Shown here piece by piece: positions 15,543-25,034 of a stretch of DNA of 64,000 nucleotides; within the stretch, counting starts at the first letter, position 1; every line of letters starts with the position of its first letter. Position numbers and translations under genes: made by a program. The DNA is from Dehalococcoidales bacterium. GTDB taxonomy: Bacteria > Chloroflexota > Dehalococcoidia > Dehalococcoidales > W693. The notes below the pieces were generated by a model. The model ran no database searches. It was not told the DNA's origin and saw only the letters and a program-made list of their open reading frames with translations. The DNA is taken from NCBI GenBank assembly GCA_034431095.1, contig DAOUDM010000019.1, forward strand, positions 13,653 through 77,652, read 5' to 3'.

Positions 15543-15788
15543 TTACTTTTTCCCCCTCAATCGGTTGTACTTCTCCTCGCCGAGGCATTCCCTGGCGGCA
15601 TGGCACCAGTCAATGCAGGAAGGAATAGCCTCCCTGAAGACCACAACGCCGCATTGGGTGCACTTAGCCTTCAGTTCGTCACTCCATATCTCCACTTCCT
15701 CCCCGCACTCGGGACATTTTTTCAGGGTGGGGACGGGAGTTCTGATATTTCCGCTTCCCGGGCATTTATCCAGCACTTCGTTTACCAC
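15543..15788 (-). CDS. cysteine-rich zinc-ribbon protein of unknown function embedded in the spc operon
   Basis: 81-aa ORF with a GTG start 1 nt after the rplN stop (TAA-G-GTG) and an end 30 nt before rplX. It has 8 Cys: CPECG...CTQCG plus CIDWCHAAREC. I recognise no family. Confidence 0.6.
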   Translation of the reverse strand: MVNEVLDKCPGSGNIRTPVPTLKKCPECGEEVEIWSDELKAKCTQCGVVVFREAIPSCIDWCHAARECLGEEKYNRLRGKK

Positions 15789-16465: not shown

Positions 16466-16663
16466 CTACCTTATTCCCAGCTCCCTTTCCCTTATTATCG
16501 TCTTGAGCAGGGCAATCTTTCTCTTAGCTCTCGGAAGCTCACGGTGGTTTTTCAACTGCTTGGTAGCGGTACTGAGCCGGAGGTCGAAATACTCCTTGTG
16601 CGCCGCCTCCAGTTGCTTCTTCAGCTCATCGTCTCCGAGAGCCCGGACTTCCTTAACTTTCAA
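16466..16663 (-). CDS. rpmC: 50S ribosomal protein L29
   Basis: 65-aa ORF in the expected position with the L29 helical pattern. Confidence 0.9.
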
Positions 16664-17114
16664 CCTGCGTTAGCTCCTTCTTTGCTGAATCACTGCCGGC
16701 TTCACTGCCCTCTCTGACTACGAACCTGGTGCCGATAGGCAGTTTGTGTGACGCCAGACGCATCGCTTCCTTGGCCAGGTCGTGGTCGACGCCGCCCAGC
16801 TCAAAAAGAATCCGCCCCCGCTTGACCACGGCTACCCAGTGGTCGGGAGCCCCCTTGCCGCTGCCCATTCGGGTCTCGGCAGCTTTCTTGGTCACCGGCT
16901 TGTCGGGGAAGATGCGTATCCATACCTTGCCGCCGCGGCGAACGTGGTGAACGATAGCCCGCCGTGCCGCCTCAATCTGTCGGCTGGTAATCCAGGCTGA
17001 ATCCAGTGCCTGCAGTCCGAACTCACCAAAGACAACAGTAGCCCCCACCTGGGCTTTACCCCGGCGGTGCCCTTTATGACTCTTGCGATACTTAACCCGT
17101 TTCGGTTGTAACAT
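16653..17114 (-). CDS. rplP: 50S ribosomal protein L16
   Basis: 153-aa ORF beginning [11 protein letters not shown]. Confidence 0.95.
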
Positions 17115-18327
17115 CCGTCTCCTCGGTCTCTATGTCTGCTGCCGGCTTTGCTTTTGTTGTCTTCGTTGCCTTCTTGGCCTTAGTATCCTTTTCCTTTGGC
17201 TCTTTAGTGGCTTTAGTCTTCGCCTTTGTCTCCTTAACCGCCGCCGGCTTCGCCTTCGCCTTTCGCTTGGCCGGTGGTTTTTCAGCCTTCTCTGGCTTTG
17301 CGGCAGGCTCCTCCGCTTTTGCCCCAGCCTCTTCAGCCACCGCCGGTTTCGCCTTAGTGGCTCTCTTTGCTTTTGGTTTAGCCGGCTCGGCTTCCACCTC
17401 GGCAACCGCCGGTTTCGCCTTAGTGGCTCTCTTTGCTTTTGGTTTAGCCGGCTTGGCTTCCGCTTCGGCAACTGCCGGCTCCGCCTTTTTCTTTGCCCTC
17501 GGTTTTACCGGCTTGGCCTCTGGCTCGGCTTCCTCTTTTACTTCTTTTACTTCGGCTTTTATCTTCTCTTCTGCCGTTATTGCCTCTTCAGCTACCGGTG
17601 GCGCCGGTATTTCTTTTGGCTCGACTGCCGCCGGTTCCGCCTCAGTAGCTATGACGGCTTCTGGTTCGGCTGTTATCTCCTCGGCTATTACCTCCTTAAG
17701 CTCCGGCAGAATATCTCCCCGGTATATCCACACCTTGACCCCGATGCGGCCCAGGGTGGTACATGCCTCGGTGAAGCCATAGTCGATATCAGCCCGCAGC
17801 GTGTGTAGCGGTACCCGCCCCCGGTGCATCGTCTGGCGGCGGGCTATCTCGACACCACCCAGCCTGCCGGAACAGCTTATCTTCATTCCCTGGGCCCCAG
17901 CCTGCATGGTGCGGAAAAGCGCCTGTTTCATAGCTCTGCGATAGGCAAGACGACGCTCAATCTGCTCGGCTACCATCCGGGCTACCAGAAAAGCGTCCAG
18001 CTCGGGCTGTCGAATCTCCTGTATATTAAGCTGAACCCTCTTTTTGATAAGGCTCTCAAGGTAGTTCTTGACTTCGTCAACTCGCTGTCCGCCCCGCCCG
18101 ATAACGATGCCGGGCCGGGCGGTGTAGATAGATACCGATACCTTATGTGCCTGACGCTCAATCTCGACCAGAGAGACACCGGCATCGACATATTTATCGC
18201 TGATGGCGTTCCTTATCTTTATGTCCTCGTGGAGGAACTCCGAGTAGTGCTTGTCGGCATACCACTTTGCCTGCCAGTCGCGTATGATGCCAATCCTGAA
18301 CCCAAACGGGTGAACCTTACGTCCCAT
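17092..18327 (-). CDS. rpsC: 30S ribosomal protein S3 with a roughly 190-aa Lys/Ala/Pro/Glu-rich C-terminal extension
   Basis: The N-terminal ~215 aa is canonical S3 (MGRKVHP.GFR). The frame then stays open through a low-complexity tail that runs to, and overlaps by 23 nt, the rplP start. Confidence 0.85.
17339..17470. repeat. 66-bp tandem duplication (2 copies, 63/66 identical) inside the S3 tail
   Basis: 17339-17404 and 17405-17470 align with 3 mismatches. Each copy encodes the 22-aa unit [23 protein letters not shown] degenerate third copy follows. Confidence 0.9.
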
Positions 18328-18668
18328 TAGACCTCCTGCGCCTCGGCAACGATGACTGTAATATGGCTGGAGCGCTTAAGGATACGATGCGCCCGCCCCC
18401 GGGACACGGCACGGAATCTCTTCATCGGTCTTGCCTCATCGGCGTAGATATTAACCACCTTCAAATCTGCGGGCTCCATCTGGAAATTGTTCTCGGCGTT
18501 AGCCGCCGCCGATTTCACCACCTTGGCTACCACACGGGCTAGCGGCGATGGAGTAAAGCGGAGTATTGTCAGGGCTTCTTCGACCTTCTTGCCCCGCACC
18601 ATATCCACCAGCAGACGTATCTTCCGCGGTGATACGCCGGTATCCTTGGCTACTGCTCTAACTTCCAT
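18327..18668 (-). CDS. rplV: 50S ribosomal protein L22
   Basis: 113-aa ORF with the L22 pattern (SPRK.R...D..RG). Confidence 0.95.
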
Positions 18669-21834: not shown

Positions 21835-23916
<2,082 letters not shown>

Positions 23917-23992
23917 GACCATAGCCTCTCGTTTCAACCCTGCCGTTAGCGGCTTTTTTTCTATTATTCTGGTATTTATAGTCTGTAACCTC

Positions 23993-24463
23993 TCACCATC
24001 TATAGTGGGCAAAAGCCCGGTTAGCCTCGGCCATCTTATGAGTATCCTCACGCTTCTTGACCGCCGCTCCCTGTCCCTTTGAAGCATCGATAAGCTCCGA
24101 TGCCAGTTTTTCCGCCATAGACTTACCGGTTCTGGCTCGGGCTGATTTGAGCAGCCACCGTATAGCCAGGGCTATGTTGCGGCCCGGCCTGACCTCCACC
24201 GGCACCTGATAGGTAGCGCCGCCAACGCGACGCGGCTTTACCTCAAGTAAGGGGGTGGCATTGCGCACCGCCGCCTCCAGAATACTGACCGGCTCTCTAC
24301 CCTCGCTCTTCTCTATAATCTCCAGAGACTGGTAAACAATCTGCTCGGCGGTAGTCTTCTTACCGTTAAGCATTACTTTATTAACCAGCCTGGATACGGT
24401 TAGATTATTGTACTTGGCGTCAGGTATGACCTCTCTTTTCTTGACCGCTGCCCGCCTTGGCAT
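23993..24463 (-). CDS. rpsG: 30S ribosomal protein S7
   Basis: 156-aa ORF beginning MPRR, with the C-terminus [10 protein letters not shown]. Confidence 0.95.
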
Positions 24464-24471
24464 CTCTCCCC

Positions 24472-24909
24472 CTATACTTCGTCAGTCTCAGCCGTCTTTT
24501 TAGCCCGCTTACTGCCGTATTTACTGCGGCCCTGACGGCGATTGGCGACACCGCTGGTATCCAGCGTTCCCCTTACAATATGATAGCGGACGCCAGGCAA
24601 ATCTGGCACCCGCCCACCACGAATCAGCACCACGGAGTGCTCCTGAAGCTCATGTCCTTCTCCGGGGATATAAGCTGTCACCTCCATGCTATTGGACAAC
24701 CGCACCCTGGCTATCTTGCGCAGTGCCGAATTAGGCTTCTTGGGTGTGGCCGTCTTGACCTGTATGCAGACCCCCCGCTTTTGCGGCGAGCCAGCCCCGC
24801 GTACCACCTTGTTCTTCAAGGCGTTGTAGGTAAATCTGAGCGCCGGCGTCTTGGTCTTCTTGGCGACCTTCTTGCGCCCTTTACGAACCAGTTGATTAAC
24901 AGTGGGCAA
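24472..24909 (-). CDS. rpsL: 30S ribosomal protein S12
   Basis: The conserved N-terminus [11 protein letters not shown] follows TTG 24909, with a GGGGGAG SD just upstream. The ORF-track start at 24963 adds 18 non-conserved residues. Confidence 0.9.
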
Positions 24910-25034
24910 TTTCTCCCCCTTCTCCGGACAATTTCGAAGGATGAGCCTTAGCTCATCCTTCACAAGCCAAATGAATCGACTGGAACTTTAGCCCAATCAA
25001 TAACCATAGCTGAAGTGGCTATCAACAGCCGCTA

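What the first reader, a model, noticed from the sequence alone, without database searches (positions are those of the whole stretch)
17092..17700. Ribosomal protein S3 carries a roughly 190-aa histone-H1-like Lys/Ala/Pro/Glu tail built from recent 66-bp tandem duplications
Canonical S3 ends near residue 215-230. Here the frame continues for about 190 more residues ([74 protein letters not shown]...[29 protein letters not shown]). It terminates 23 nt inside rplP, so the tail exactly fills what would otherwise be a 570-nt gap. Two 66-bp units (17339-17404 and 17405-17470) are 63/66 identical, indicating recent expansion and likely length polymorphism. AKP-rich basic tails bind nucleic acid in other proteins. 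On S3, at the mRNA entry channel, such a tail could affect mRNA or rRNA contacts.
Basis: partly seen in the sequence, partly recalled or inferred. Interest (0 to 1): 0.6.

Follow-up and report, generated by a model that had tools for sequence, protein, structure and literature searches.

The report
Long disordered tail on ribosomal protein S3
In this Dehalococcoidales bacterium, ribosomal protein S3 carries a real 204-residue floppy, highly charged tail that grows and shrinks by in-frame tandem duplication; it is an extreme, apparently undescribed case of a known kind of ribosomal-protein extension, it is not truly histone-H1-like, and its function is untested.

Summary
rpsC (minus strand, 17092-18327) encodes 411 aa. 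Residues 1-207 are canonical bacterial uS3 and residues 208-411 are a low-complexity A/K/E/P tail. The gene ends 23 nt inside rplP, and two 66-bp units are 63/66 identical.

The tail is not an artefact. The 120 closest database homologues are all 277-428 aa. Indels against close relatives are in frame. Tail dN/dS is 0.26-0.47, against 0.04-0.12 for the core. The closest relatives carry one or zero copies of the 22-aa unit, so copy number does vary.

"Histone H1-like" is only partly apt. The tail is a block polyampholyte:
- residues 208-270 are acidic (net -14);
- residues 271-400 are basic (net +23);
- residues 401-411 are acidic, and that end is largely the alternate-frame reading of the rplP ribosome-binding site and start.

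Overall net charge is only +5. Across 45 Dehalococcoidales-type species tails, the proximal part is acidic in 98% and the whole tail is net negative in 87%.

About half of these tails contain their own tandem repeats, and all but one have a period divisible by 3. Many share a short module, KP-x(0-4)-[RK]3.

AlphaFold2 predicts disorder. I found no paper describing this tail. The function is inferred, not shown: a flexible electrostatic appendage near the mRNA entrance.

The parts
17092..18327 (-). rpsC, complete coding sequence for a 411-aa uS3 (stop codon at 17092-17094)
   Evidence: ORF list. TIGR01009 rpsC_bact 288 bits. Lies between rplV (18327..18668) and rplP (16653..17114), the usual S10-operon order.
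17707..18327 (-). Canonical uS3 core, residues 1-207 (KH domain plus S3 C-terminal domain). The mRNA-entry residues R130, R131 and K134 are retained.
   Evidence: Pfam and NCBIfam matches. R130 and R131 are invariant and K134 is at least 90% conserved in a 69-sequence alignment. AlphaFold2 gives the expected alpha/beta fold, with block pLDDT mostly 50-89.
17518..17706 (-). Tail segment 1, residues 208-270: acidic E/A/P/V/I-rich spacer, net charge -14
   Evidence: Charge profile. A net charge of -14 in the first 63 tail residues was reached in 0.015% of 20,000 shuffles. The proximal part of the tail is net acidic in 98% of species-level relatives, and the shared start (LPEPKEVE...) is also present in short-tailed Dehalococcoidia.
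17128..17517 (-). Tail segment 2, residues 271-400: basic K/A/P(+E,T) block, net charge +23. It holds four copies of a module of the form E-x-(K/E)P-x-KP-x-AK(K/R), whose matched residues begin at 275, 295, 317 and 350.
   Evidence: Composition and module map. The relaxed module KP-x(0-4)-[RK]3 occurs in 27 of 46 tails, against about 2.3 expected from shuffles.
17339..17487 (-). 66-bp tandem repeat, 2.3 copies. The two full units are 17339-17404 and 17405-17470. In codon register they encode residues 286-307 and 308-329 (VAE[A/V]EA[K/E][15 protein letters not shown]).
   Evidence: TRF. 63/66 identity, with a codon-shuffle maximum of 43. The closest relatives have one unit or none.
17092..17127 (-). 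Tail end, residues 401-411 ([11 protein letters not shown]) plus the stop codon. This stretch is dual-coded with the rplP ribosome-binding site (GAGGAG, 17119-17124) and the first 23 nt of rplP (ATG at 17112-17114).
   Evidence: Sequence read on the minus strand. D[AV]TT[EQ]xG is the +1-frame reading of the conserved rplP start MLQPKR. Overlaps are mainly 14, 23 or 41 nt, all in this same frame (32 of the 35 overlapping cases; the other three are single cases of 17, 32 and 59 nt), among 56 loci where rplP was located, and they include S3 proteins of only 226 aa.
16653..17114 (-). rplP (uL16, 153 aa). Its start lies inside the 3' end of rpsC.
   Evidence: Pfam Ribosomal_L16, E = 9e-55; ORF list.

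Best explanation
This is a genuine, translated, intrinsically disordered C-terminal extension of ribosomal protein uS3. It is characteristic of the order Dehalococcoidales (Chloroflexota) and is close to its longest here.

Shown:
- An ancestral short acidic tail lies between the S3 core and a fixed 3' end that overlaps rplP.
- That tail has been repeatedly lengthened in different lineages by in-frame tandem duplication of 18-141-nt units. In this genome the latest event is a 66-bp duplication.
- The result is a block polyampholyte: an acidic E/A/P spacer next to the core, followed by a K/A/P block holding four copies of a short basic module.
- Selection keeps the frame, the composition and the acidic-then-basic polarity, but not the exact sequence.

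Inferred from the known position of the bacterial S3 C-terminus: the tail projects from the solvent face of the 30S head beside the mRNA entrance. There it most likely acts as a flexible electrostatic appendage. The acidic spacer would be repelled from rRNA and hold the chain off the surface. The multivalent basic modules would make weak, non-sequence-specific contacts with RNA, either incoming mRNA or nearby rRNA.

Also inferred: because rpsC terminates inside rplP, rplP translation is probably coupled to rpsC translation.
For: Identity and reality:
- The core is canonical uS3.
- The 120 best homologues are all 277-428 aa.
- The organism is placed in Dehalococcoidales by 80 genome loci.
- Tails of 18-233 aa with the same composition occur across those loci.
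- Indels against three close relatives are all in frame. Tail dN/dS is 0.26-0.47 and core dN/dS is 0.04-0.12.

Growth by duplication:
- The 66-bp units are 63/66 identical.
- Relatives carry one or zero units.
- 26 of 49 tails have their own tandem repeats, with periods of 18-141 nt, and 25 of those 26 periods are divisible by 3.

Architecture:
- Charge blocks of -14, +23 and -4, and the segregation exceeds shuffles.
- The proximal segment is acidic in 98-99% of relatives.
- The basic module is enriched more than tenfold over shuffles.

Disorder: AlphaFold2 block-mean pLDDT is 32-42 with no secondary structure from residue 202 onward.

Specific to S3: no other AEKP-rich stretch occurs in the 64-kb window, and the neighbouring ribosomal proteins checked have ordinary domain extents.

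Overlap with rplP.

Precedent for charged uS3 extensions near the mRNA entry: the Chlamydomonas chlororibosome (PMC12919044).
Against: - There is no direct evidence of translation or of tail retention in mature ribosomes (no proteomics, ribosome profiling or structure).
- Function is entirely inferred.
- Length varies from 18 to 233 aa, dN/dS is 3-4 times that of the core, and many relatives lack the basic block. These are also what a weakly constrained, tolerated low-complexity expansion would show.
- The homologue sets are phylogenetically non-independent. The set is also biased towards tails resembling the query.
- dN/dS in low-complexity sequence depends on the alignment.
- The position of the S3 C-terminus on the 30S subunit comes from general knowledge of bacterial ribosome structures. 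It was not computed here.
Confidence: 0.6

Rival explanations
1. The tail is real and translated but is essentially tolerated low-complexity material. Replication slippage in a solvent-exposed disordered tail expands and contracts it. Selection acts only against harmful compositions (hydrophobic or aggregation-prone), frameshifts, and loss of the rplP start context. On this reading the tail has no specific molecular role.
For: - Tail length ranges from 18 to 233 aa among relatives.
- Repeat units have different periods in different lineages.
- dN/dS is 3-4 times higher than in the core.
- Net charge ranges from about -42 to +9 in the species set and up to +32 in the homologue set.
- The C-terminal conservation is explained by dual coding with rplP.
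- The tail alone finds nothing in 1.84 billion representative proteins.
Against: - The extension persists across an entire order.
- The acidic proximal polarity is nearly universal, at 98-99%.
- A short basic module recurs far above shuffle expectation in diverged tails.
- dN/dS stays below 0.5.
- Among about 30 ribosomal protein genes in the window, only S3 has such a tail. Generic slippage does not predict that.
Confidence: 0.3
2. The proximal acidic segment acts as a nucleic-acid mimic. It folds back onto the basic mRNA-entry surface formed by uS3, uS4 and uS5, or onto the tail's own basic block. In this way it gates or plugs the entrance, for example in idle or hibernating ribosomes of these slow-growing cells.
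For: - The acidic segment directly follows the S3 C-terminal domain and is the most conserved property of the tail.
- The basic helicase residues R130, R131 and K134 are retained.
- Charge segregation within the tail is significant.
- There is a precedent for a ribosomal-protein extension occupying the mRNA entrance: the uS5 N-terminal extension of C. acnes (PMC10085706).
Against: There is no structural or biochemical evidence. An acidic start is also found on short tails (36-48 aa) that may not reach the channel. AlphaFold2 predicts no docked conformation.
Confidence: 0.1
3. The K/A/P block is a histone-H1-like DNA-binding module. It would give S3 a moonlighting role in the nucleoid or tether ribosomes to DNA.
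For: Residues 271-400 are K 28.5%, A 29% and P 12%, with [16 protein letters not shown] repeats. Bacterial H1-like proteins with K/A/P repeats and variable repeat number are known, such as Chlamydia Hc2 (PMC2848022) and Pseudomonas AlgP (PMC9239181).
Against: - The whole tail is nearly neutral, at net +5 with 21% acidic residues.
- 87% of related tails are net negative and about half lack a basic distal part.
- No linker-histone domain is present.
- S3 is a stoichiometric ribosome component, so RNA is the more likely partner.
Confidence: 0.05
4. The tail is an artefact. Either an assembly or frameshift error hides a true stop near residue 220, or the 66-bp copy number is an assembly error.
For: - The window comes from a metagenome-type assembly.
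- 8 of 80 related loci have a 100-N run exactly inside the S3 tail, which shows that this region is hard to assemble, or that it is masked in the collection.
- The other frames are also open across the tail.
Against: - More than 100 independent assemblies keep the same frame open through to the rplP overlap.
- Indels are in frame and dN/dS is below 1.
- Without the tail there would be about 590 nt of apparently gene-less sequence inside a compact operon.
- The two repeat copies differ at 3 positions and span about 150 nt, which short reads can resolve. Copy number remains the least certain item.
Confidence: 0.03

Closest known systems
C-terminal extensions of uS3 in Actinobacteria and Mycoplasma (Mycobacterium 274-275 aa, Cutibacterium acnes 269 aa, Mycoplasma pneumoniae 273 aa)
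   Same: A lineage-specific extension on the same protein at the same terminus, beyond a conserved core of about 207-217 residues. These are the longest bacterial uS3 chains among solved ribosomes.
   Different: Those tails are about 50-65 aa, whereas this one is 204 aa, roughly three times longer. It is built from tandem repeats and has an acidic-then-basic block architecture. The mycobacterial and C. acnes ribosome papers I read discuss other extensions, such as uS5, bS16, uL4 and uL22, but assign no role to the uS3 tail.
Chlamydomonas chloroplast uS3c (712 aa) and the small-subunit 'arm' extensions
   Same: A large extension of uS3 placed near the beak and mRNA entry. It is positively charged in part and has been proposed to stabilise or thread mRNA (PMC12919044; chain 28jw_c).
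   Different: The algal extension is largely folded (helical) and interlocks with dedicated chloroplast-specific proteins. The tail here is predicted to be fully disordered, is low-complexity, and occurs in a free-living bacterium with otherwise ordinary neighbouring ribosomal proteins.
Bacterial histone-H1-like K/A/P repeat proteins (Chlamydia Hc2/HctB, Pseudomonas AlgP, actinobacterial HU C-terminal tails)
   Same: K/A/P-rich short repeats encoded by tandem DNA repeats whose number varies between strains (PMC2848022, PMC9239181). Residues 271-400 here resemble them in composition.
   Different: By my own knowledge, not a test run here, those proteins are strongly basic throughout and bind DNA or polyphosphate. 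This tail is 21% acidic, has a net charge of +5, begins with a 63-residue acidic block, is attached to a ribosomal protein, and has net-acidic relatives.
The short disordered C-terminal tail of canonical bacterial S3 (E. coli S3 is 233 aa in solved structures)
   Same: From my own knowledge of bacterial ribosome structures, a solvent-exposed tail of about 20-30 residues follows the S3 C-terminal domain and is generally not resolved. The tail here starts at the same point.
   Different: The length is about 204 aa against 20-30 aa. This tail is repetitive and modular, and its stop codon lies inside rplP.

Membership tests
Bacterial ribosomal protein uS3 (rpsC; TIGR01009) | Full-length match to the bacterial S3 equivalog model above its curated cutoff | tested here: met
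   TIGR01009.1 scores 288.3 bits against a cutoff of 114.5, covering residues 1-207 and model positions 1-209 of 212.
Bacterial ribosomal protein uS3 (rpsC; TIGR01009) | KH type-2 domain followed by the S3 C-terminal domain | tested here: met
   PF07650 covers residues 37-110 (E = 3e-17) and PF00189 covers 119-201 (E = 2e-34).
Bacterial ribosomal protein uS3 (rpsC; TIGR01009) | Gene located between rplV and rplP in the S10 operon | tested here: met
   L22 is at 18327..18668 and L16 at 16653..17114 on the same strand. The order is the same in relatives.
Histone H1 / bacterial H1-like proteins | Strongly basic K/A/P composition with very few acidic residues across the region | tested here: not met
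   The tail is K 21%, R 2%, E 19% and D 1.5%, a net charge of +5 over 204 aa. Only residues 271-400 are net basic (+23), and they still hold about 14% acidic residues.
Histone H1 / bacterial H1-like proteins | Detectable homology to a linker-histone or known H1-like family | tested here: not met
   No Pfam or NCBIfam hit covers the bulk of the tail; the furthest-reaching match ends at residue 231. No PDB sequence hit at E up to 1. No hit among 1.84 billion representative proteins.
Histone H1 / bacterial H1-like proteins | Binds and compacts DNA | not testable with these tools
   This needs gel-shift or compaction assays with the recombinant tail.
Lineage-specific intrinsically disordered ribosomal-protein extension | Appended to a conserved ribosomal-protein core and restricted to one lineage | tested here: met
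   Among the 80 fetched loci, long tails occur in Dehalococcoidales/Dehalococcoidia genome bins. Other Dehalococcoidia in that set have tails of 12-48 aa, and the Anaerolineae and Lactobacillaceae loci have 13-aa tails.
Lineage-specific intrinsically disordered ribosomal-protein extension | Predicted to lack stable structure | tested here: met
   AlphaFold2 with a 69-sequence alignment gives block-mean pLDDT of 32-42 and no helix or strand from residue 202 to 411.
Lineage-specific intrinsically disordered ribosomal-protein extension | Present on the mature ribosome | not testable with these tools
   This needs proteomics or cryo-EM of Dehalococcoidia ribosomes.

The most novel reading that the evidence does not exclude
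The uS3 tail could be a functional, tunable module of the Dehalococcoidales ribosome. A conserved acidic gate next to the mRNA entrance would be combined with a variable number of short basic RNA-binding modules (KP-x-[RK]3). Together they would capture or retain mRNA, or reversibly plug the entry channel or bridge ribosomes in idle cells. Repeat number would then act as an evolvable dial on translation in these slow-growing organisms with small genomes.
Probability: 0.12. Interest if true: 0.7.

Novelty: new variant of a known kind. Interest (0 to 1): 0.45.

Why it matters
uS3 helps form the mRNA entrance and helicase site of every ribosome. A 200-residue charged tentacle anchored there, conserved as a feature across an environmentally important order (organohalide-respiring and subsurface Dehalococcoidales), would be one of the largest appendages on a universal small-subunit protein in a free-living bacterium. 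No solved bacterial ribosome contains anything comparable.

It offers a natural series of 18-233 aa tails, with 0-5 basic modules, for asking what disordered ribosomal-protein tails do.

There is also a practical point. rpS3 is widely used as a single-gene marker for species-level profiling of metagenomes (for example PMC3971608). A repeat-bearing, length-variable 3' half that seems to break assemblies (100-N runs in 8 of 80 loci) can distort clustering and length filters for this lineage.

Tried and rejected
- Tail-only homology searches found nothing useful. The word-indexed search of 5.8 billion proteins returned a single S3 relative. The exhaustive phmmer search of 1.84 billion representatives returned zero hits. 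The PDB search returned none. Composition correction removes low-complexity matches, so these nulls say only that the tail is not a recognisable domain.
- I looked for the organism or accession behind the identical protein P0001. It is not on record in the contig index, and cluster look-ups gave no names or accessions. I therefore could not establish whether cultured Dehalococcoides mccartyi or Dehalogenimonas carry a long tail. A literature search for the locus tag DET0480, which I recalled from memory as the D. mccartyi rpsC gene, found nothing.
- Literature searches for a description of this tail found none. The absence covers only the open-access library that was searched.
- I considered a separate gene or antisense gene within 17100-17800. 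The plus-strand ORFs 17083..17808 and 17132..17782 translate to L/F/C/R/S-rich nonsense, and they are open only because the region is low-complexity. Rejected.
- I considered foreign origin of the tail. GC content is 0.53-0.57, the same as the flanks. Rejected.
- Rfam finds only two tRNAs in the window and nothing in the operon.
- I considered the conserved C-terminal motif as a functional peptide. It is better explained by dual coding with the rplP ribosome-binding site and start.
- The apparently over-long EF-G (750 aa) and S12 (163 aa) ORFs are start-codon over-extensions of the mechanical ORF list. Their Pfam domains begin at residues 65 and 57.
Full report
**What is there**

On the minus strand, the ORF 17092..18327 encodes a 411-aa protein. 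Residues 1-207 match the bacterial S3 equivalog model TIGR01009 at 288 bits against a cutoff of 114.5. They contain the KH_2 domain (37-110) and the Ribosomal_S3_C domain (119-201). The gene lies between rplV (18327..18668) and rplP (16653..17114; Pfam Ribosomal_L16) in an S10-spc-alpha ribosomal gene cluster. No family model matches beyond residue 231, and TIGR01009 ends at residue 207.

The remaining 204 residues (208-411, nt 17095-17706) are A 25%, K 21%, E 19%, P 12%, T 8% and V 6%. This is the only stretch in any frame of the 64-kb window with at least 70% A+E+K+P over 40 residues. The neighbouring ribosomal proteins have ordinary domain extents.

rpsC ends 23 nt inside rplP. TRF finds a 66-nt repeat at 17339-17487 (2.3 copies, 92% matches). 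The two full units are 63/66 identical, with one synonymous and two non-synonymous differences. The best tandem match in 300 codon shuffles was at most 43/66.

**Whose genome, and is the tail real?**

Eighty genome loci encoding relatives are almost all Dehalococcoidales or Dehalococcoidia metagenome-assembled genomes. The 120 best protein hits, drawn from NCBI, ENA, JGI and Logan assemblies, are all 277-428 aa. In the species-level loci the S3 ORF runs on for 18-233 residues past the core, with the same A/E/K/P/V/T composition. By contrast, an Anaerolineae locus and several Lactobacillaceae loci have 13-residue tails.

I compared the window with three close relatives for which I fetched DNA (L081, L082, L084). 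All tail indels are multiples of three. Nei-Gojobori dN/dS is 0.26-0.47 in the tail and 0.04-0.12 in the core. The tail is therefore under relaxed but real purifying selection in the S3 frame. A frameshift or missed stop is very unlikely.

The plus-strand ORFs across the region translate to L/F/C/R-rich nonsense. They are open only because the sequence is low-complexity. GC content matches the flanks.

**Recent duplication and length variation**

In the protein alignment A1 (confirmed at codon level), the window has two copies of the 22-aa unit VAE(A/V)EA(K/E)[16 protein letters not shown]0002, P0003 and P0004 (87-89% identity in the alignment) have one copy, and P0005 has none. The two copies differ by 4.5%, whereas core dS to these relatives is about 0.2. 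The duplication therefore post-dates their divergence.

The pattern is general. In 26 of 49 species-level tails, TRF finds a tandem repeat of period 15 nt or more. The periods range from 18 to 141 nt and differ between lineages, and 25 of the 26 are divisible by three. Examples are three copies of 75 nt, four of 123 nt, 4.3 of 108 nt, 6.6 of 54 nt and about 22 of 21 nt. Tails therefore grow repeatedly and independently by in-frame tandem duplication.

There is a caveat. Eight of the 80 loci contain a single 100-N run, always inside the S3 tail. These are either scaffold gaps at the repeats or masking by the collection. Copy numbers taken from short-read assemblies, including this window, are the least secure numbers here.

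**Architecture**

The tail is not uniformly basic:
- Residues 208-270 have a net charge of -14 (E 32%, A 21%, P 13%).
- Residues 271-400 have a net charge of +23 (K 28.5%, A 29%, P 12%, E+D about 14%).
- Residues 401-411 have a net charge of -4.
- The whole tail has a net charge of +5 and a pI of 9.0.

This segregation exceeds shuffles. A net charge of -14 in the first 63 residues was reached in 0.015% of 20,000 shuffles, and the local patterning statistic was reached in about 0.1% of 2,000 shuffles.

Polarity is conserved. Among 119 homologues the first 20 tail residues average -5.8 +/- 1.4, and the first 60 are net negative in 99%. In the less biased species-level set (45 tails of at least 60 aa), the first 60 residues are net negative in 98%. 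However, only 49% have a net-positive remainder, and 87% of whole tails are net negative, with a median of -9.

Short-tailed Dehalococcoidia already begin with the same acidic start, LPEPKEVE.EE.... The ancestral and lineage-wide trait is therefore an acidic tail. The K-rich block is an elaboration of this clade and some others.

Within the basic blocks a short module recurs, (E)EKPAKPxx(R/K)3 in many lineages. Here it appears as [34 protein letters not shown] and [10 protein letters not shown], with the matched residues beginning at 275, 295, 317 and 350. The relaxed pattern KP-x(0-4)-[RK]3 occurs in 27 of 46 tails, against 2.3 expected from shuffles (maximum 8). These counts are inflated by shared ancestry, but they span core identities down to about 55%.

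AlphaFold2 with a 69-sequence alignment gives block-mean pLDDT of 32-42 and no secondary structure from residue 202 to the end.

**The C-terminal motif is dual coding**

The tail end...[13 protein letters not shown], looks conserved. The minus-strand sequence shows why: GAG ACC GAG GAG ACG GAT GTT ACA ACC GAA ACG GGT TAA. It contains the rplP Shine-Dalgarno sequence GAGGAG (17119-17124) and the rplP start ATG TTA CAA CCG AAA CGG GTT AA.

The motif D(A/V)TT(E/Q)xG(EIPQES) seen across homologues is the +1-frame reading of the highly conserved L16 N-terminus [10 protein letters not shown]. Overlaps are mainly 14, 23 or 41 nt, all in that frame; these three lengths account for 32 of the 35 overlapping cases among 56 resolved loci, and the other three are single cases of 17, 32 and 59 nt. 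They include S3 proteins of only 226 aa.

The overlap therefore predates tail expansion. Expansions were inserted between the acidic start and this fixed 3' end. The arrangement implies that rplP translation is coupled to rpsC, which is an inference.

**How it most likely works**

Shown: the tail is a real, S3-specific, disordered, modular polyampholyte that evolves by in-frame tandem duplication under constraints on composition, polarity and a short motif.

Inferred from general knowledge of bacterial 30S structures, not computed here: the S3 C-terminal domain sits on the solvent side of the head and lines the mRNA entrance together with uS4 and uS5. The last ordered residue, about 207, is surface-exposed. 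The helicase-site residues R130, R131 and K134 are retained here.

A 204-residue chain anchored there could reach the mRNA entrance, the beak and neighbouring ribosomes. My preferred reading is an electrostatic appendage. The acidic spacer would be repelled by rRNA and keep the chain off the surface. One to five basic modules would make weak multivalent contacts with incoming mRNA or nearby rRNA.

The rival readings are:
- essentially neutral, tolerated low-complexity material (0.3);
- an acidic mRNA-mimic gate at the entry channel (0.1);
- literal H1-like DNA binding (0.05);
- an assembly or frameshift artefact (0.03).

**Comparison with what is known**

The longest uS3 chains in solved bacterial ribosomes are 269-275 aa, in Mycobacterium, Cutibacterium acnes and Mycoplasma pneumoniae. 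The papers I read on those ribosomes discuss other extensions but assign no role to the uS3 tail.

The Chlamydomonas chloroplast uS3c (712 aa) has a large, partly positively charged extension near the mRNA entry that has been proposed to stabilise mRNA. That extension is folded and is supported by organelle-specific proteins.

Bacterial H1-like proteins such as Hc2 and AlgP share K/A/P repeats and repeat-number variation. From my own knowledge they are basic throughout. The tail here fails that composition test, and it shows no linker-histone homology.

Five literature searches found no description of the Dehalococcoidales uS3 tail. The sequences themselves are in public databases, annotated simply as S3.

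**Verdict**

This is a new variant of a known kind, namely a lineage-specific disordered ribosomal-protein extension. It is extreme in length and has a clear modular, repeat-driven evolutionary mechanism, but its function is untested. Interest is moderate (0.45).

Noticed in passing
L014 1254-1353; L019 3855-3954; L022 3780-3879; L025 3837-3936; L029 3774-3873; L041 3928-4027; L057 3747-3846; L076 3791-3890: Eight of the 80 related genome loci contain exactly one run of 100 N, and in every case it lies inside the S3 tail coding region and nowhere else in the locus. These are either scaffold gaps caused by the tail repeats or masking by the collection. In either case, tail lengths from short-read genome bins are uncertain.
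   Followed up: partly
window 15543-15788 (-): An 81-aa Cys-rich zinc-ribbon-like ORF (CPxC...CxxC motifs) sits between rplN and rplX inside the ribosomal operon. Its only Pfam hit is Zn_ribbon_NUD, below the cutoff. By tblastn it is found only in the closest relatives L005, L081 (apparently split across two frames) and L082.
   Followed up: partly
window 17092-17114 and loci L003-L073: The rpsC stop lies inside rplP, mostly by 14, 23 or 41 nt and then always in the same frame. This holds across Dehalococcoidia, including species whose S3 is only 226 aa. It is an unusually long, conserved gene overlap that predates the tail expansion and suggests translational coupling.
   Followed up: yes
window 16653-17114 (-): uL16 is 153 aa. 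About 20 residues extend beyond the Pfam L16 domain, which covers residues 4-132, and they form a short acidic/Ser-rich C-terminal end, [19 protein letters not shown]. The same 153-aa length is seen in close relatives.
   Followed up: no
window 17150-17750: The plus strand shows a strongly negative AT skew across the tail region (-0.5 to -0.7, against about -0.1 to -0.3 in the flanks). The tail mRNA is therefore very A-rich relative to T, while GC content is unchanged.
   Followed up: no
window 21835-24087 (-) and 24472-24963 (-): The mechanical ORFs for EF-G (750 aa) and S12 (163 aa) look over-long, but their Pfam domains begin at residues 65 and 57. The true starts are probably downstream, so these are not real extensions.
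   Followed up: partly
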